DNA of 64,000 bases from Candidatus Lloydbacteria bacterium RIFCSPHIGHO2_02_FULL_50_18 (GTDB lineage: Bacteria; Patescibacteriota; Minisyncoccia; Phycocordibacterales; UBA6899), in NCBI GenBank assembly GCA_001821395.1, contig MHLM01000014.1:128001-192000 (forward strand). The letters run 5' to 3'. The notes beneath the pieces were generated by a model that worked only from the letters and a program-made list of their open reading frames with translations, did no database searches and was not told the origin of the DNA. Shown here piece by piece: positions 4,524 to 63,879 of this stretch (the first letter of the stretch is position 1; every line of letters starts with the position of its first letter). The translations under genes and the position numbers were made by a program.

Positions 4524-4763
4524 ATTCGGAACATATACAAAAGGCCTCAATGCGGGGCCTTTTGTATTCGACAATTGTGCGGACATTCTGTATCATCTCA
4601 TTAGCTCGTCATTGAAAGGGTTTGTGATGCTCACGACACTTTTTTCTTCTCTTCGCGTGATAAGGAGCTGCTGCTCTTCGCCGCCTTTTTTGACCTCATT
4701 TTTTTCTGCGTATTATCTTTTATTCTCGGCTATCATTCGTCGCTCTTATGGGTCATCTACGAG

Positions 4764-4982
4764 GTGGGGGTCATCGGCCTGTGTGATATTCTCTCGCGGA
4801 GATATTTTTCTTGGCGTGAGATGAAGCGGTTGGCATGGCTCACGAATGGTCAACATGGGTTGTTCCCCAAGCCCTGGATGTACTACGCGGACTTGTGGGC
4901 TGAGCTCTTTGGTAAACCGATGGGTGTAATATATGTTGGCTTATTCATAGTCGGAAAACTGTGCGCATTCTTTTTTGCCTGA
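4764..4982 (+). CDS. hypothetical small protein (GTG start; weak)
   Basis: 72-codon ORF ending at the bidirectional terminator. There is no in-frame ATG and the upstream frame stays open without a start, so it may be non-coding. Confidence 0.25.
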   Translation: MGVIGLCDILSRRYFSWREMKRLAWLTNGQHGLFPKPWMYYADLWAELFGKPMGVIYVGLFIVGKLCAFFFA

Positions 4983-31470: not shown

Positions 31471-31621
31471 TTTAAGCAAATTAAGGTTGTTAGTTGCAGG
31501 TAGGCTATACTTTTTGACAAAAGATTAACAATACATATTATTTGTAAATAAAATATGTTGTTATATATAGATATTCTGAAAATTGAGTTATATTGTTAAT
31601 ATATAAAATACAATATCCACA

Positions 31622-60109: not shown

Positions 60110-60844
60110 ATGAGCGAACTGACCATCAACAATGTCACGGTGCGAACGAGCGATAAGATCGTCGTTGACGGTGCATCGCTTACGATCAAAAGCGGAGAGA
60201 TCCATGTGCTGATGGGGCCGAACGGATCGGGGAAATCGTCTCTCCTCAACGCCATCATGGGACATCCGAAATATGAAATTAGGGGCGGCTCGGTGATGCT
60301 CGACGGAGAAGATATCACGACACTTGCCACGGAAAAGAAGGCGCGTGCGGGGATATTCCTTTCGCTCCAGCATTTGCCCGAGATTGCGGGTGTGACGCTC
60401 ACGAATTTTCTTTTCCGCGCACACAAAAGCATGAAGCCAGAAAGCGAGGTCACGCCGCTTGAATTTTTTAAACTGATGGAGGCAAAGGCAAAAGAGTTTG
60501 GGATCGATCCGTCGTATCTGCGCAAACATTTGAATGCCGGACTTTCGGGAGGTGAGAAGAAACAATCCGAAGTGCTCCAACTCCTTGCGCTCGAACCCAA
60601 ATTCGCACTCTTGGATGAGATCGACTCCGGGGTTGATATTGATGCCTTGAAGCGAGTCTTTGCGGTCATTAGCGCGCTCCGTGATCGTGGGATGGGATTT
60701 CTGCTCGTGACCCACTACAGCAAGCTTTTGGAACACATTACTCCTGATGCGGTCACCGTCATCAAGGAGGGAAGAGTTGTCGCATCGGGTAAGGGTGAGC
60801 TTGTCGAGAAGATCGCGAAAGAGGGATTTGAATCCCTCATCTGA
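60110..60844 (+). CDS. sufC: Fe-S cluster assembly ATPase SufC
   Basis: Walker A GPNGSGKSS, signature LSGGEKK and Walker B LLDEIDSGVD. Confidence 0.85.
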   Translation: MSELTINNVTVRTSDKIVVDGASLTIKSGEIHVLMGPNGSGKSSLLNAIMGHPKYEIRGGSVMLDGEDITTLATEKKARAGIFLSLQHLPEIAGVTLTNFLFRAHKSMKPESEVTPLEFFKLMEAKAKEFGIDPSYLRKHLNAGLSGGEKKQSEVLQLLALEPKFALLDEIDSGVDIDALKRVFAVISALRDRGMGFLLVTHYSKLLEHITPDAVTVIKEGRVVASGKGELVEKIAKEGFESLI

Positions 60845-60846
60845 CC

Positions 60847-61128
60847 ATGCTTACGAAAGATGACATCATTAAGGCGCTCAAGACCGTCGAAGATCCCGAA
60901 ATACATATTGATGTGTATACACTTGGACTTATCTACAATATCGACATCAATGATGCGGGGATAGACATCTTGATGACGCTCACGACGCCTTTTTGTCCGT
61001 ATGGCAATCAGATCGTGCAGGCCGTCGAGAAAGCACTCAAGCCATTCGGACTTGAGGTACGCGTTGAGATCACGTTTGAGCCCGAGTGGGTTCCACCTGA
61101 GGATGTAAGAATAGCCCTGGGGATATAA
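60847..61128 (+). CDS. DUF59/MIP18-family Fe-S assembly protein (SufT-like)
   Basis: ALKTVEDPEIHIDVYTLGLIYNIDI...LTTPFCP matches the DUF59 motif. Confidence 0.75.
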   Translation: MLTKDDIIKALKTVEDPEIHIDVYTLGLIYNIDINDAGIDILMTLTTPFCPYGNQIVQAVEKALKPFGLEVRVEITFEPEWVPPEDVRIALGI

Positions 61129-61196
61129 TAATTTGACAAAAGCATAAAAAGAAGTCTAACTAGTACTAGAAGTTGTACTCGTTGACGATGATGTGA

Positions 61197-61240
61197 ATTT
61201 GCCATAGCCAAAAGTCCTTTGATGAGCTCAGGATTTCTGG
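61197..61240 (+). promoter_or_regulatory. conserved 44-nt 5'-UTR stem-loop element, copy 1 (catagccaaaagtcctttgatgagctcaggatttctggctgtg)
   Basis: An identical 44-mer occurs at 62088-62131. It folds as an 8-bp outer stem plus a 6-bp inner stem with an 11-nt loop. A ttgacaaaag -35 box lies at 61133. Confidence 0.55.
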
Positions 61241-61300
61241 CTGTGGCAAATCTCAATTCCGAGAAACCAGAGCAGTGCGACCTCATTTGAGGGAGCAATT

Positions 61301-61909
61301 TTGAAAAGGAGACCCATCATGGGGAAACTTATCACAGAGACACCGTACTCGGAGATTACTGCAACGATGGAGTTGCTCGATTCTTTTGGTGTGTCACGGG
61401 AAGATCTGACTCGGTTCAGGAAGGCTTCGTGGGAATTGAAGACGAGGGTGGCTGGCCTCATCATCCATGGCGTCTCTCACAGCGCCACAATATCCGTCGA
61501 CTACAATATGCCTCTCAAGGCAATGATTGTCTCCGGGCTTTACGATTGGGTGAACAAGAATATCACTGAAGAACACTTCCCGATTGCGGAAAGTGGAGTG
61601 GCAAATATCACGGTTGAGCTGGTGCAGTTTGGTCGAAAGATTTTATTCGATGATGCCGTCGCCGAATTGCGTCGTCGCGATTTACGCCCCGCAACCCTGG
61701 CCGAGCTCCTTGCGTTCGGTAATGCGTTCCCCATGGAGCAGTGTAGGTACCCTATTGTGGCGCTTGGCTCCGATGCGATCGTCGACCGCCTTCGGTACGT
61801 CGCATTTATCAGCAAAGAGGGTTCGGATCGGGTTCTCGACCTCGAGTCTACGTTCGGTTATTTTTTTGGCAACGCTCGTTTTCTTGCCGTGTGCAACAAA
61901 GATCTATGA
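61301..61909 (+). CDS. hypothetical protein (202 aa), cassette paralog X
   Basis: AAAAGGAG RBS upstream. The C-terminal region is distantly similar to the 62200-62799 product (YDWVNKNITEEHFP versus YPDWVKQVMHPELEDV; RVLDLESTFGYFFGNARFLAV versus YRLDLHWSSDDNLAARF). Confidence 0.6.
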   Translation: MKRRPIMGKLITETPYSEITATMELLDSFGVSREDLTRFRKASWELKTRVAGLIIHGVSHSATISVDYNMPLKAMIVSGLYDWVNKNITEEHFPIAESGVANITVELVQFGRKILFDDAVAELRRRDLRPATLAELLAFGNAFPMEQCRYPIVALGSDAIVDRLRYVAFISKEGSDRVLDLESTFGYFFGNARFLAVCNKDL

Positions 61910-61937
61910 TCCTCGTTTCTCGGGTCTACTTTGTAAC

Positions 61938-61988
61938 CTATTGACCGTCAATATCGTCCCGCGCATGTATGCAAATACAGCGCGGGAC
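61938..61988 (+). terminator. conserved terminator module, copy 1 (atatcgtcccgcgcatgtatgcaaatacagcgcgggactttt)
   Basis: Hairpin cccgcgc...gcgcggg plus T-run. A near-identical copy lies at 62838-62888. Confidence 0.6.
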
Positions 61989-62087
61989 TTTTAAATTGAC
62001 AAAAGTGCCACTTGGATTAGGTTGAAGGTATTGTTCTTGGTTTTTTAATGCAGGCGTGCATTCCTGTATGGGGTAGGTCGGTGGTCA

Positions 62088-62131
62088 TAGCCAAAAGTCC
62101 TTTGATGAGCTCAGGATTTCTGGCTGTGACC
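62088..62131 (+). promoter_or_regulatory. conserved 44-nt 5'-UTR stem-loop element, copy 2
   Basis: Identical to 61197-61240. It is preceded by ttgacaaaagtgcc at 61993. Confidence 0.55.
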
Positions 62132-62199
62132 AACGTAGGCCACAGCTCCACCTCGGATGAGAGGAAAATCTACGCACAATTGAGTGCAAGGAGAATGAT

Positions 62200-62799
62200 A
62201 TGATTAGAGAAAGATTGGCGATCGCTGATGTCACTGGTGGGCAATTGAATGCCATCGTCAAAAAGATCAAAAAAGCTGGCGGAGTTGATGGCGTCCAACG
62301 CTTCTTGTCCGACGAACTCATCGTCACCGCAAAGGAAGACACCATCATCCGCATCACGCGTCCGGTCAAACCGACCTACCCCGACTGGGTGAAACAGGTG
62401 ATGCACCCAGAACTAGAAGACGTGGGTCCAGGCGAGTACGATCTCGCTTCCATCGACCTATGGCTCGATGAGCGACAGATGAAGAGTAGTGACTACATGA
62501 GACAGATGGGGCGGGTCTACGGAAGCGTTATCTACGAAGATTTCAAACACAACGACAGACTTAAAACCTGTCTCGGCCTCCGAGATGCCGAGGAGATCCA
62601 AAAGAAGGGCCCCGCCGTTTTCCGCCGATGCTTCGGCAAGAAAGCGTTGTGCTTTTGGAAGTCGGTTGTCTGCAGCACGGATCTTAATCTCCACGTCCCG
62701 TGTATCTACGTGTTAAATGATGATGTGGTGATAAGTTGGTACCGGCTCGACCTTCACTGGTCGAGCGACGACAACCTTGCGGCGCGTTTCACAAGTTAG
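62200..62799 (+). CDS. hypothetical protein (199 aa), cassette paralog Y
   Basis: CAAGGAG RBS upstream. It is distantly similar to the 61301-61909 product. Confidence 0.6.
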   Translation: MIRERLAIADVTGGQLNAIVKKIKKAGGVDGVQRFLSDELIVTAKEDTIIRITRPVKPTYPDWVKQVMHPELEDVGPGEYDLASIDLWLDERQMKSSDYMRQMGRVYGSVIYEDFKHNDRLKTCLGLRDAEEIQKKGPAVFRRCFGKKALCFWKSVVCSTDLNLHVPCIYVLNDDVVISWYRLDLHWSSDDNLAARFTS

Positions 62800-62837
62800 T
62801 TCTTTGGGTTCGGTCACTATGTCTTTGTGATATTCTG

Positions 62838-62888
62838 ACCCTCGATATCGCCCCGCGCATGTATGCAAATACACCGCGGGGCTTTTTG
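62838..62888 (+). terminator. conserved terminator module, copy 2 (atatcgccccgcgcatgtatgcaaatacaccgcggggctttttg)
   Basis: Hairpin plus T-run. It is shared by convergent dsbA-like gene on the minus strand. Confidence 0.6.
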
Positions 62889-62966
62889 TTTTTACCCCCC
62901 ATGATTCATTTTTGGGATAAAAAATCTCCGCGATCGCGGAGATATTTTAATTTATAGAATTCCTTG

Positions 62967-63749
62967 CTACTTCGCCGAAGGGGCGGCGATAATACCATCA
63001 AGCAAAGATTTCACATTTTCGAACGGATAGGCTCCGTTCATTGATACCTGCTTTCCGGTCTTCCTGTTCCAGATGATCGAGTAGGGGGTTCCGCGAACGC
63101 CGACGCTCGCGCCGTTCTCAAAATCACGCTGTACGCGAGGAGCATATTTCCCGCTACTCAAACAGGTGGTGAACTTTGCAACATCGACTCCGACCATGCC
63201 GGCGATCTGTGGAAGCATTGTAGCGTCAAGTCCATTGTTACCAGGGGTGATCTCGAATATCTTATCAGCGTATTTCCAGAATGCATCATTACCGCCGAGT
63301 TCATTTGCGCATTCAAGCGCCTCAGCTTCTTTGCGAGCTTTCGGATGCATATCGAGCGGGAAGTGACGATACACCCATGCGACCTGTCCTGATGTACCAT
63401 ATTCCCCGGCGACGAGAAGCATCGTCTCATGGAGTCGCTTGCAGAATGGGCATTCGGTATCCGAATATTCGATGACCACAACATCAGCATCGGGGTTTCC
63501 AAGAATGTGGTCGTCGTTCGTGAGCTTAAGCAGGTTGACGTCGACATTGGCGACCGGGGCGTCTGCTGCGGGTGGGGGTACCCCGCCGGCGGCTAGTGTT
63601 GGTGTTCCTACTGCGGTCTTATTCGAAAAAATGATCGAACCCGCAATGAGTATTCCGGCAAAAACGATCGCGATAGGTATGTTGAGACTGTCATCTCTCT
63701 TGGTGTGGGTAACATGATGCGTGGCCGGCGTTTGATTTTCTTTTTCCAT
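62967..63749 (-). CDS. DsbA-family thiol:disulfide oxidoreductase with N-terminal TM anchor
   Basis: N-terminal TM IPIAIVFAGILIAGSIIF and the thioredoxin active site CPFCKRLH. Confidence 0.8.
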   Translation of the reverse strand: MEKENQTPATHHVTHTKRDDSLNIPIAIVFAGILIAGSIIFSNKTAVGTPTLAAGGVPPPAADAPVANVDVNLLKLTNDDHILGNPDADVVVIEYSDTECPFCKRLHETMLLVAGEYGTSGQVAWVYRHFPLDMHPKARKEAEALECANELGGNDAFWKYADKIFEITPGNNGLDATMLPQIAGMVGVDVAKFTTCLSSGKYAPRVQRDFENGASVGVRGTPYSIIWNRKTGKQVSMNGAYPFENVKSLLDGIIAAPSAK

Positions 63750-63879
63750 AAATTTGGCGTATGTGAATAAGCGCTTAAGGTTTGTATTGCGAGTATAACA
63801 TGACAGGGTTATTCACATGAGTTGACAAAAGTGTCTTATCGTGAATAATTATTGCAGGTCTACCAAAAGGAGCATCGTT

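What the first reader, a model, noticed from the sequence alone, without database searches (positions are those of the whole stretch)
61129..62900. Two adjacent paralog cassettes sharing an identical promoter box, a 44-nt 5'-UTR stem-loop and a terminator module
Seen in sequence: each unit is organised as TTGACAAAAG -35 box (61133; 61993), then 60-95 nt, then an identical 44-mer catagccaaaagtcctttgatgagctcaggatttctggctgtg (61197; 62088), then a second small hairpin cctcNNNNNgagg, then a strong RBS and a 200-aa ORF, then a conserved hairpin terminator ...cccgcgcatgtatgcaaatacaScgcggg...tttt (61938; 62838). The two ORFs are only distantly similar (for example DWVNKNITEEHFP/DWVKQVMHPELEDV; RVLDLESTFGYFFGNARFLAV/YRLDLHWSSDDNLAARF). 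The flanking regulatory modules, in contrast, are near-identical. This implies gene conversion or selection acting on the non-coding modules, or cassette-like shuffling of divergent ORFs into a common expression module. The 44-mer forms an 8-bp plus 6-bp two-tier hairpin with an 11-nt loop containing ugaugagcuc, and could be a riboregulator, RNA thermometer or protein-binding site. The third TTGACAAAAG box at 63826 drives the next, truncated, gene.
Basis: seen in the sequence. Interest (0 to 1): 0.6.

Follow-up and report, generated by a model that had tools for sequence, protein, structure and literature searches.

The report
Conserved leader hairpin of DGR-target genes
The two neighbouring genes belong to a family of small proteins that a reverse-transcriptase system hypermutates in candidate-phyla-radiation bacteria, and the shared 5' hairpin is a structured mRNA leader, absent from Rfam, found in front of such genes in over 100 species.

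Summary
A 43-nt exact repeat lies at 61203-61245 and 62086-62128, a 64-nt 3' module at 61929-61992 and 62823-62886, and TTGACAAAAG boxes at 61133, 61996 and 63822.

The two ORFs show no BLASTP similarity. Profile comparison puts them in one superfamily (hhalign 98%). Close homologues are proven targets of diversity-generating retroelements (DGRs): they sit next to TR, Avd and RT, and their VR/TR mismatches fall almost only at TR adenines. The window, from a Candidatus Lloydbacteria genome, has no RT or TR. The locus is identical in six assemblies. The two genes are therefore targets with no DGR nearby, and apparently static.

The 5' hairpin is not a local oddity. [quoted passage not shown] It lies about 30 nt after a sigma-70 promoter and about 55 nt before the ribosome-binding site of a ~200-aa DGR-target-type gene. 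Covariation is strong, with conserved G.U pairs and an A.C mismatch, so it is a sense-strand RNA. Rfam has no match.

The 3' module is an intrinsic terminator, as in 67 active loci. Full identity of the variable hairpin tip and of the terminator between the two cassettes points to local duplication or gene conversion. The hairpin's mechanism is inferred: a cis-acting post-transcriptional control element.

The parts
61133..61161 (+). Promoter of cassette 1: -35 TTGACA (61133-61138) and a weak -10 candidate CTAACT (61156-61161)
   Evidence: In 81 of 100 hairpin loci a sigma-70-like promoter ends a median 39 nt before CAUAGCC. Here the distance is about 41 nt.
61197..61251 (+). P1 leader hairpin, copy 1 (exact 43-mer core 61203-61245)
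   Evidence: Covariance model R1 scores 45.6 bits, E = 6e-10, on the + strand against 29.9 bits on the - strand.
61277..61311 (+). Small hairpin GCGACCUC-AUUU-GAGGGAGC followed by the ribosome-binding site AAGGAG (61306-61311)
   Evidence: The stretch from P1 to the ATG is 88% identical to L001, against 76% at third codon positions.
61319..61909 (+). ORF1, 196 aa (MGKLITETPYSE...), a DGR variable-protein family member (OGZ04717.1, A2845_05500)
   Evidence: 16 homologues. P0012 in L004 is a proven DGR target. The A3 HMM gives E = 7e-81. Name.
61929..61992 (+). 3' module, copy 1: motif YUGACCNUCRAUAUCG, terminator hairpin 61956-61988 (GCAA loop) and a U tract
61996..62024 (+). Promoter of cassette 2: -35 TTGACA (61996-62001) and a weak -10 candidate TAGGTT
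62080..62134 (+). P1 leader hairpin, copy 2 (exact 43-mer core 62086-62128)
   Evidence: R1 scores 44.5 bits, E = 1e-9.
62146..62193 (+). Predicted junction that occludes the ribosome-binding site: CUCC (62146-62149) pairs with GGAG (62190-62193) and encloses P2 (CCUC-GGAUGA-GAGG, 62151-62164) and P3 (GCAC-AAUUGA-GUGC, 62174-62187)
   Evidence: RNAalifold on 14 leaders of this subfamily. P3 covaries, P2 has two double changes, and the CUCC:GGAG pairing is conserved without covariation.
62200..62799 (+). ORF2, 199 aa, a DGR variable-protein family member (A2845_05495, P0017)
62823..62886 (+). 3' module, copy 2: the same motif, terminator hairpin 62850-62882 (GCAA loop) and a U tract
62918..62949 (.). 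Palindromic bidirectional terminator between ORF2 and the convergent DsbA-like gene. It marks the end of the cassette array.
   Evidence: (I1).

Best explanation
The region holds two self-contained expression cassettes for small proteins of the Patescibacteria (CPR) DGR variable-protein superfamily. Neither has its retroelement nearby.

Each cassette runs in this order:
- a sigma-70 promoter;
- a structured leader of about 150 nt;
- a ~200-aa protein with an N-terminal helical module and a C-terminal C-type-lectin-like scaffold, the part that is the variable region in active relatives;
- an intrinsic terminator about 50 nt after the stop codon.

The shared 5' stem-loop (P1) is the hallmark of a leader RNA conserved across this gene family in many CPR lineages. 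Its base (RGY-CAUAGCCAAAAG / YUGGCUAUG-RCY) has a conserved A.C mismatch and G.U pairs and is fixed in sequence. Its upper stem covaries freely and its tip tolerates insertions.

Shown: the family membership of the ORFs; the RNA structure and its strand; its fixed place between promoter and ribosome-binding site; and its tight association with DGR target genes, whether or not an RT is adjacent.

Inferred: P1 acts in the mRNA as a recognition site for a conserved trans factor, a double-strand RNA-binding protein or RNase III. P1 is about 22 bp, two helical turns. Together with the downstream pairing that hides the ribosome-binding site, it would set the stability or translation of the variable-protein mRNA. 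I put about 0.35 on this specific mechanism and about 0.8 on 'functional cis-acting leader RNA'.

The complete identity of P1's normally variable tip and the 84% identity of the terminator module between the two cassettes come from recent local duplication or gene conversion. The 894-bp ORF2 unit is bounded by the 3' modules and is missing in a syntenic relative.
For: ORF family:
- hhalign of A3 against A4 gives 98% probability.
- Homologues of both ORFs lie directly upstream of TR, bAvd and RT.
- VR/TR pairs are 125-128 nt, with 15-20 mismatches at TR adenines and 0-1 elsewhere. The same pattern holds in 67 loci.
- The ORF2 model gives weak but coherent C-type-lectin-fold matches, including the DGR proteins TvpA and Mtd.

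No DGR nearby, and static:
- No RT or Avd by tblastn in the window.
- No TR in the window.
- No RT within 10 kb downstream.
- The locus is 100% identical in six assemblies.

P1:
- At least 120 genome loci, almost all CPR. Only 3 doubtful hits in 2.9 million viral contigs.
- 94.5% of cells paired; 10 of 22 pairs change on both sides; covariation score 0.37 against 0.14 for shuffles (0 of 500 reach it) and at most 0.125 for slid controls. G18.U37 occurs in 40 of 42 sequences.
- The + strand scores higher than the - strand.
- A promoter is found in 81 of 100 loci, ending a median 39 nt upstream, against 3 of 100 in coding controls. The ribosome-binding site is a median 56 nt downstream.
- 70 of 83 complete downstream ORFs are RT-linked or have a C-terminus matching an RT-linked target.
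- In loci retrieved by RT alone, 17 of 40 with enough upstream sequence carry P1 1.2-1.75 kb upstream on the RT strand, with no hit elsewhere in 435 kb. Many of the rest carry variant hairpins, GCCACAGC...GCUGUGGC.
- Between the window and L001, the leader is better conserved (P1 91%, P1 to ATG 88%) than third codon positions (76%) or the promoter region (56%).
- No Rfam match.

Terminator: a GC hairpin plus U tract lies a median 57 nt after the VR end in 67 active loci, with variable loops.

Cassette gain or loss: L001 runs from the ORF1 homologue straight to the DsbA-like gene.
Against: - No experiment or transcript data shows that P1 is transcribed or bound.
- The pairing that hides the ribosome-binding site is conserved but shows no covariation.
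- The possible alternative pairing of P1's 3' arm with the downstream GGYCAUAG segment is no better than shuffles.
- The trans factor is unidentified.
- The pattern used for the genome scan fixed the lower stem, so its invariance in that set is partly by ascertainment. The RT-anchored set shows that variants exist.
- I could not examine the rest of the Lloydbacteria genome. An RT acting in trans on these genes is not excluded.
- ORF1 has lost several conserved tryptophans of the variable-region scaffold and may have a different role.
Confidence: 0.7

Rival explanations
1. P1 is a component of the DGR mechanism itself. It would be a cis element on the target, at DNA or RNA level, that recruits the RT-Avd-cDNA complex or marks genes for mutagenic retrohoming, rather than an expression element.
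For: - P1 is almost exclusively associated with DGR target-type genes.
- It keeps a fixed geometry relative to the RT in active cassettes.
- Its sequence is conserved while the RTs have diverged to about 60% identity. That fits co-evolution with a DGR-encoded protein.
- How cDNA is integrated in DGRs is unknown (general knowledge).
Against: - P1 lies about 450-500 nt upstream of the variable region. The known DGR target determinants (IMH and the adjacent hairpin) are at the variable region's 3' end (general knowledge of phage BPP-1).
- P1 is intact in both window copies, which have no TR or RT nearby and show no variation.
- It is also intact in 32 loci with no RT within 2.7 kb or more downstream.
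- Its position tracks the promoter and the ribosome-binding site.
- Conserved G.U pairs and an A.C mismatch point to sense-strand RNA.
- P1 arm k-mers are not enriched elsewhere in the cassettes, so there is no sign of pairing with the TR RNA.
Confidence: 0.12
2. The leader is a ligand-sensing riboswitch or an RNA thermometer that opens the ribosome-binding site in response to a small molecule or to temperature.
For: - A three-stem leader is predicted to sequester the ribosome-binding site, and the P2 loop (GGAUKA) is conserved.
- A repeat of the P1 5' arm downstream offers a possible alternative fold: 81% of cells pair, against 50% or less when slid.
Against: - The conserved nucleotides of P1 form a regular helix, not a junction or pocket.
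- Other subfamilies keep P1 but have different downstream elements.
- P1 folds at about -29 kcal/mol and excludes the ribosome-binding site, which is unlike thermometers.
- The alternative pairing has no covariation support.
- No Rfam riboswitch matches.
Confidence: 0.08
3. The units are mobile gene cassettes, integron-like or MITE-like, and the hairpins are recombination sites. The sequence identity would reflect recent transposition rather than a role in expression.
For: - The ORF2 unit (894 bp) is present in the window and absent from the syntenic locus L001, and is bounded by 64-nt direct repeats.
- Tandem family genes with homogenised flanks recur in L003, and L089 and L092, two contigs of one genome, carry near-identical hairpins.
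- Modules are shuffled, as in P0024.
Against: - Called genes and their Pfam hits were seen only for about 20 kb around the cassettes (L007), and none is an integrase or transposase. The rest of the 64-kb window was not screened for such genes.
- P1 always lies between a promoter and a ribosome-binding site, on the sense strand.
- Two copies in one genome often differ in the variable tip (L083; L042 versus L079).
- The 3' hairpin has the features of an ordinary terminator.
Confidence: 0.05
4. This is a simple recent local duplication followed by fast ORF divergence. The shared non-coding pieces would have no function.
For: Only two copies occur in the window. The apical part of P1 and the terminator are identical or nearly so.
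Against: - The ORFs are too divergent for a recent duplication (BLASTP E = 2.9). Each has closer relatives in other genomes.
- P1 is conserved with covariation in more than 100 species.
- The outer stems of the two copies each follow their own subfamily's type.
Confidence: 0.03

Closest known systems
DGR variable (target) proteins with a C-type-lectin-fold variable region: Mtd of phage BPP-1, TvpA of Treponema denticola, and the domain-less targets of 'DGR clade 2' restricted to Patescibacteria (Roux et al. 2021, PMC8144416)
   Same: - Homologues of both ORFs carry a C-terminal variable region of about 125 nt matched by a TR, with adenine-specific mismatches, next to Avd and RT.
- The predicted fold of ORF2 weakly matches C-type-lectin-fold proteins, including TvpA and Mtd.
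- No Pfam domain is found, as reported for CPR targets.
   Different: - The window copies have no TR or RT within reach and show no variation between assemblies.
- ORF1 has lost several conserved scaffold residues.
- A conserved structured 5' leader has not, as far as my searches show, been described for DGR targets.
The GC-rich hairpin (cruciform) next to IMH at the 3' end of the BPP-1 variable region, which is needed for efficient retrohoming (Guo et al. 2011; from my own knowledge)
   Same: A GC-rich hairpin with a 4-nt GNRA-type loop (GCAA) follows each ORF. Active relatives have one at a regular distance after the variable region (median 57 nt).
   Different: - Here the hairpin is followed by a U tract and sits about 50 nt, not a few nt, from the end of VR/TR homology.
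- Loops vary widely across loci.
- It fits an intrinsic terminator. A second role in DGR targeting is untested.
Long 5'-leader hairpins that serve as RNase III or protein recognition sites controlling mRNA stability or translation, such as the E. coli pnp and rnc leaders, the phage T7 R1.1 signals with internal loops, and the MS2 coat-protein operator (from my own knowledge)
   Same: - About 22 bp of helix interrupted by a conserved 1x1 or 2x2 mismatch.
- A sequence-conserved lower stem with a free apical part.
- A position between the transcription start and the ribosome-binding site, with the ribosome-binding site predicted to be paired.
   Different: No cleavage or binding data exist. The degree of sequence conservation exceeds what RNase III alone normally requires. 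The factor is unknown.
Rfam cis-regulatory families
   Same: P1 behaves like a typical candidate motif from comparative genomics: conserved, covarying, and tied to one gene family.
   Different: No Rfam 15 family reaches threshold on the window or on 18 related loci. Only chance miRNA-like hits at E > 0.3 overlap P1.

Membership tests
DGR variable-protein (target) gene | Sequence homology to proteins shown to be DGR targets | tested here: met
   ORF1: homologues P0012 (L004) and P0002 (L002) lie next to TR and RT. ORF2: P0030 (L013) and P0036 (L015) lie next to TR, bAvd and RT. hhalign of A3 against A4 gives 98%.
DGR variable-protein (target) gene | A template repeat (TR) nearly identical to the variable region, differing at TR adenines | tested here: not met
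   No TR-like match to either C-terminal coding region in the 64-kb window or downstream. The rest of the genome could not be searched.
DGR variable-protein (target) gene | A DGR reverse transcriptase (and Avd) in the locus | tested here: not met
   tblastn with RT and Avd of this clade finds nothing in the window. No RVT_1 domain within 10 kb downstream.
DGR variable-protein (target) gene | Variable-region hypervariability within or between populations | tested here: not met
   61100-62950 is 100% identical in six assemblies from different samples. Read-level variation is not testable here.
DGR variable-protein (target) gene | A C-type-lectin-type fold carrying the variable region | tested here: inconclusive
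Intrinsic (Rho-independent) terminator | A GC-rich hairpin immediately followed by a U tract, downstream of the stop codon | tested here: met
   Hairpins at 61956-61988 and 62850-62882. Fragments fold at -32 and -36.5 kcal/mol, z about -5, followed by UUUU(U). The same architecture occurs in 67 active loci.
BPP-1-type DGR target-recognition hairpin | A hairpin a few bp downstream of IMH that is required for retrohoming | not testable with these tools
   A hairpin is present, but about 47-51 nt after the stop codon. No IMH or TR is available in the window, and function needs an assay.
Any Rfam 15 family | Covariance-model score at or above the family's gathering threshold | tested here: not met
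   0 matches on the window. Only sub-threshold chance hits on 61100-62950. Only tRNAs on 18 related loci.
RNA thermometer (ROSE / fourU type) | The ribosome-binding site or start codon lies inside a marginally stable hairpin | tested here: not met
   P1 ends 55-67 nt before the ribosome-binding site and folds at about -29 kcal/mol.
Riboswitch | A conserved ligand-binding core and ligand-dependent alternative folding | not testable with these tools
   The complementarity for an alternative pairing exists but is not supported by covariation.
Candidate new motif: 'CPR DGR-target leader hairpin (P1)' | RGY-CAUAGCCAAAAG / YUGGCUAUG-RCY stem with an A.C mismatch, on the sense strand, between the promoter and the ribosome-binding site of a ~200-aa DGR-target-type gene | tested here: met
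   Both window copies match model R1 (45.6 and 44.5 bits) and have the promoter, ribosome-binding site and ORF context.

The most novel reading that the evidence does not exclude
P1 is a previously unrecognised cis component of Patescibacteria DGR systems. It would be an RNA handle on target transcripts, bound by the DGR's own Avd-RT complex or by a dedicated host factor. It would couple expression of the variable protein to retrohoming, or mark which genes, including remote ones with no DGR nearby, belong to the diversification regulon.
Probability: 0.12. Interest if true: 0.8.

Novelty: new variant of a known kind. Interest (0 to 1): 0.55.

Why it matters
DGR targets in the candidate phyla radiation are abundant but functionally opaque. 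They have no recognisable domains, and nothing is known about how they are expressed.

A sequence- and structure-conserved leader RNA specific to these genes offers three things:
- a new candidate cis-regulatory RNA class for a lineage with very few known RNA regulators;
- a sensitive marker for finding remote, stranded or decayed DGR targets that VR/TR-based tools miss, such as the two genes here and the truncated locus L079;
- a concrete, testable handle on whether variable-protein expression is post-transcriptionally controlled or linked to the retroelement. The tests are RNase III or protein binding, reporter fusions, and retrohoming assays with and without P1.

For this window, it also turns two 'hypothetical proteins' into annotated DGR-family cassettes.

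Tried and rejected
- Hammerhead or other ribozyme, or any known RNA, suggested by the loop UGAUGAG: no Rfam match even at E up to 10. The loop is not conserved in other genomes.
- Kissing-loop role for the palindromic loop GAGCUC: rejected for the same reason.
- Both ORFs as targets of one TR: their C-terminal coding regions do not align at DNA level and no TR exists in the window.
- Search for further copies of this genome's exact hairpin in metagenome contigs: 0 hits. Even the window's own locus is not in that collection, so this was uninformative.
- Contig L201, from the same metagenome as one assembly of the window, carries a DGR of this clade. It has a different variable-region type, no similarity to the window ORFs, and is truncated upstream. 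It probably comes from another organism.
- Alternative pairing of the P1 3' arm with the downstream GGYCAUAG segment: the complementarity is there, but covariation is no better than shuffles.
- Pairing of P1 arms with the TR RNA or other cassette parts: no k-mer enrichment.
- Hairpin upstream of an RT gene in L079: this turned out to be a deletion that fuses a target leader to a 5'-truncated RT.
- Phage origin: only 3 doubtful hits among viral contigs.
- Pfam on the ORFs: nothing above threshold.
- Literature searches for the motif sequence, or for a 5' element of DGR targets: nothing relevant.
Full report
1. The observation

- The exact repeat is a 43-mer at 61203-61245 and 62086-62128. These are the only two matches within 3 mismatches in 64 kb, and none is expected by chance.
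- The 3' module is a 64-nt direct repeat, 84% identical, at 61929-61992 and 62823-62886. Its GC-rich hairpin core is at 61958-61986 and 62852-62880.
- TTGACAAAAG occurs at 61133, 61996 and 63822, and also at 31514: 4 found against 0.18 expected.
- The hairpin is larger than the identical core. It spans 61197-61251 and 62080-62134. The outer base pairs differ between the copies but stay paired (GCC/GGC versus GUC/GAC). The fold is 12-14 bp, a 1x1 A.C mismatch, 7 bp and an 11-nt loop, at about -29 kcal/mol and z about -6.
- The ORFs are best read as 61319-61909 (196 aa, ATG preceded by AAGGAG) and 62200-62799 (199 aa).

2. What the ORFs are

The two proteins show no BLASTP similarity (E = 2.9) and no Pfam domain. 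Each has a small set of homologues in metagenomes: 16 for ORF1 and 27 for ORF2. ORF2 is identical to a hypothetical protein of Candidatus Lloydbacteria, which identifies the window's organism. ORF1 is OGZ04717.1.

Alignments of both families show a conserved body and a hypervariable C-terminal ~45 residues, rich in W, G, D, S, Y, C, N and R and ending ...AAVRxx or ...ALRFAS. Profile comparison joins the two families (hhalign 98%, E = 2e-13). One ORF2-family member, P0024, carries the ORF1-type N-terminus.

Genomic context settles the family. The ORF1 homologue P0012 (L004) and the ORF2 homologues P0030 (L013) and P0036 (L015) lie immediately upstream of a bAvd gene and an RVT_1 reverse transcriptase. 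Their last 125-128 coding nucleotides are repeated downstream, with 15-20 mismatches at adenines of the downstream copy and 0-1 at other bases. That is the signature of a diversity-generating retroelement (DGR). The same signature was found in 67 fetched loci.

These genes match what Roux et al. 2021 call clade 2 DGRs: restricted to Patescibacteria, with targets that lack recognisable domains.

3. The window copies have no DGR nearby

- tblastn with RT and Avd of this clade finds nothing in the window.
- Nothing resembling a TR for either C-terminal region exists in the window.
- The 10 kb beyond the window end holds housekeeping genes only.
- The 1.85-kb region is 100% identical in six independent assemblies.

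The two genes are therefore not visibly diversifying. I could not search the other contigs of the genome, so an RT acting in trans is not excluded.

Genes stranded in this way are common. Of P1-bearing loci with at least 2.7 kb of downstream sequence, 32 lack an RT.

4. The 5' hairpin is a family-wide RNA motif

The leader of the ORF1 homologues in L001 and L002 keeps the hairpin, with compensatory changes.

I estimate about 35 chance hits for this pattern. The observed hits are overwhelmingly Patescibacteria MAGs: Saccharibacteria, Paceibacterota, and Nomura-, Nealson-, Buchanan-, Yanofsky- and Wolfe-bacteria. In 104 non-redundant cases the stem extends by at least 3 further pairs.

On 42 ungapped examples:
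- 94.5% of cells pair.
- 10 of 22 pairs show changes on both sides (118 cells).
- The covariation score is 0.37, against 0.14 for shuffles (0 of 500 reach it) and at most 0.125 when the partner is slid.
- The invariant lower-stem pairs were fixed by the search pattern, so they say nothing either way. The outer extension and the upper stem carry the signal.
- A G.U pair (40 of 42), a U.G pair (27 of 42) and the A.C mismatch are conserved. The covariance model scores the + strand about 15 bits higher. So the folded molecule is the sense strand, that is, the mRNA.

The model finds exactly two copies in the window. No Rfam family matches. Viral contigs give only 3 doubtful hits.

5. Context of the motif

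- In 81 of 100 loci a sigma-70-type promoter (at least 9 of 12 matches) ends a median 39 nt before CAUAGCC, against 3 of 100 in coding-region controls. A ribosome-binding site follows a median 56 nt after the hairpin.
- 83 of 107 hairpins are followed by a complete ORF, median 209 aa. Of these, 25 are linked to an RT about 1.55-1.7 kb downstream. Another 45 have a C-terminus matching an RT-linked target.
- Going the other way, 80 metagenome loci were retrieved with an RT alignment alone. Of the 40 with enough upstream sequence, 17 carry a model hit. All 17 are on the RT strand, 1.2-1.75 kb upstream, and there is no hit anywhere else in 435 kb.
- Many of the remaining loci carry variant hairpins, GCCACAGC...GCUGUGGC. 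These are closer to the outer stem of window copy 1.

The canonical cassette is therefore: promoter, P1 leader, target gene, terminator, TR, Avd (antisense), RT.

6. The rest of the leader

Window ORF2 belongs to a subfamily whose N-terminus reads ...LTAGQLNAIVKKLGG.... Its leader and first ~65 coding nucleotides are about 70-74% identical to many loci.

RNAalifold on 14 such leaders predicts P1, then UUCC or CUCC paired with the GGAG of the ribosome-binding site. This pairing encloses P2 (CCUC-GGAUKA-GAGG) and P3 (GCNC...GNGC). P3 covaries. The pairing with the ribosome-binding site is conserved but shows no covariation.

The segment after P1 repeats the P1 5' arm (GGYCAUAG) and could pair with the 3' arm instead. 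The complementarity is above slid controls but no better than shuffles, so I leave it as a possibility.

Other subfamilies keep P1 but follow it with a different CU-rich element, UAGUCCUCUGGCA.

Between the window and the 78%-identical orthologue in L001, P1 is 91% identical and the stretch from P1 to the ATG is 88% identical. Third codon positions are 76% identical and the promoter region 56%. This indicates purifying selection on the leader.

7. The 3' module

Both window hairpins are followed by U tracts and lie 47-51 nt after the stop codons. In 67 active loci a GC-rich hairpin plus U tract lies a median 57 nt after the end of VR/TR homology, and its loops vary (GAAA, UUCG, GCAA and many others).

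This is an intrinsic terminator that separates the target mRNA from the TR transcript. Whether it also serves as the DGR target hairpin known from phage BPP-1 cannot be tested here.

8. Why the two cassettes share identical pieces

The base of P1 is identical because it is conserved across the whole family. The tip of P1 and the terminator vary between genomes, so their identity here needs a local cause. The outer stems of the two P1 copies each follow their own subfamily's type. This suggests a short conversion tract rather than duplication of the whole leader.

The syntenic locus L001 goes from the ORF1 homologue and its terminator straight to the DsbA-like gene. The 894-bp unit of promoter 2, P1, ORF2 and terminator, bounded by the two 64-nt modules, was therefore either gained in the window's lineage or lost in L001's by recombination between the modules.

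Homogenised flanks around divergent family genes recur in the tandem pair of L003 and in L089 and L092, two contigs of one genome. They are not universal: the two copies in L083 differ, as do L042 and L079.

9. Mechanism

Shown: P1 is a conserved, sense-strand RNA helix at a fixed place in the 5' UTR of DGR-target-type genes.

Inferred: it is a recognition element for a conserved trans factor and, with the paired ribosome-binding site, controls mRNA stability or translation. The points in favour are the length of about 22 bp (two helical turns), the sequence-fixed lower stem with its conserved mismatch, and the free apical part. These resemble RNase III or protein operator hairpins.

A role in retrohoming itself is less likely, but my data do not exclude it. 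Against it:
- P1 lies far from the variable region.
- It persists in static genes that have no DGR nearby.
- It shows no complementarity to other parts of the cassette.

10. Novelty

The ORFs are new, unannotated members of a known kind. The leader hairpin is, as far as Rfam 15 and my literature searches show, an undescribed RNA motif tied to a known system. I therefore rate the finding a new variant of a known kind, of moderate interest.

Noticed in passing
L079:6560-6760 (- strand): A complete target-type leader (promoter, P1, CU-rich element, ribosome-binding site) is fused directly to a 5'-truncated DGR reverse transcriptase, out of frame with the leader's ATG. This is a decayed DGR in which the target, TR and Avd were deleted.
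   Followed up: partly
L015:~4760-4830; L016; L004:5700-5760; L013: A conserved sequence lies upstream of the TR in active cassettes: GGUAGUAGGCGAAUC..GCGGGC-loop-CCCGC..CCGAAUCCAGUAUCC. It is probably the structured 5' part of the DGR RNA. In this clade Avd lies antisense between TR and RT.
   Followed up: no
window:62804-62812, and the 5' ends of many leaders (L025, L052, L145 and others): The motif (A/G)GYUCUUUG(A) occurs at the predicted 5' end of leaders: 41 occurrences across 100 loci, mostly 25-39 nt before CAUAGCC. It also occurs in 3' UTRs between the stop codon and the terminator (window ORF2, L002, L004, L015). It is unexplained. UUCUUU could pair with the ribosome-binding site AAGGAG.
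   Followed up: partly
L003:3950-5630: Another genome carries two tandem family genes with near-identical 5' hairpins of a different sequence (GAGACGAGCGCC...GCGCTCGTCTC) and near-identical 3' hairpins. They lie about 2 kb from CBASS genes (CD-NTase, Cap15).
   Followed up: partly
window:62099 (start of contigs L011 and L012): Two Logan assemblies break inside the repeated 43-mer. The repeat is long enough to fragment short-read assemblies of this locus.
   Followed up: no
window:62918-62949: A 32-nt near-perfect palindrome (94% complementary arms; TAAAAAATCTCCGCGA/TCGCGGAGATATTTTA) acts as a bidirectional terminator between ORF2 and the convergent DsbA-like thioredoxin gene (62967-63749, - strand).
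   Followed up: partly
window:63822-63849 and 31514-31523: Further TTGACAAAAG boxes. The one at 63822 has a good -10 (AATAAT, 16-nt spacer) and drives an unrelated 69-aa ORF with no hairpin. So the 'box' is a general promoter feature of this genome, not specific to the cassettes.
   Followed up: partly
P0024 (ORF2-family homologue): It carries the ORF1-type N-terminus (MGKLVTETPHSE...RFRKSS) on an ORF2-type body. This is evidence of recombination of N-terminal modules within the superfamily.
   Followed up: no
window:57603-61128: Upstream context is a SUF iron-sulfur cluster operon (SufB/D, cysteine desulfurase, NifU-like, SufC at 60110-60844, DUF59-type FeS assembly protein at 60847-61128) plus an FAD-dependent oxidoreductase. 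It appears unrelated to the cassettes.
   Followed up: no
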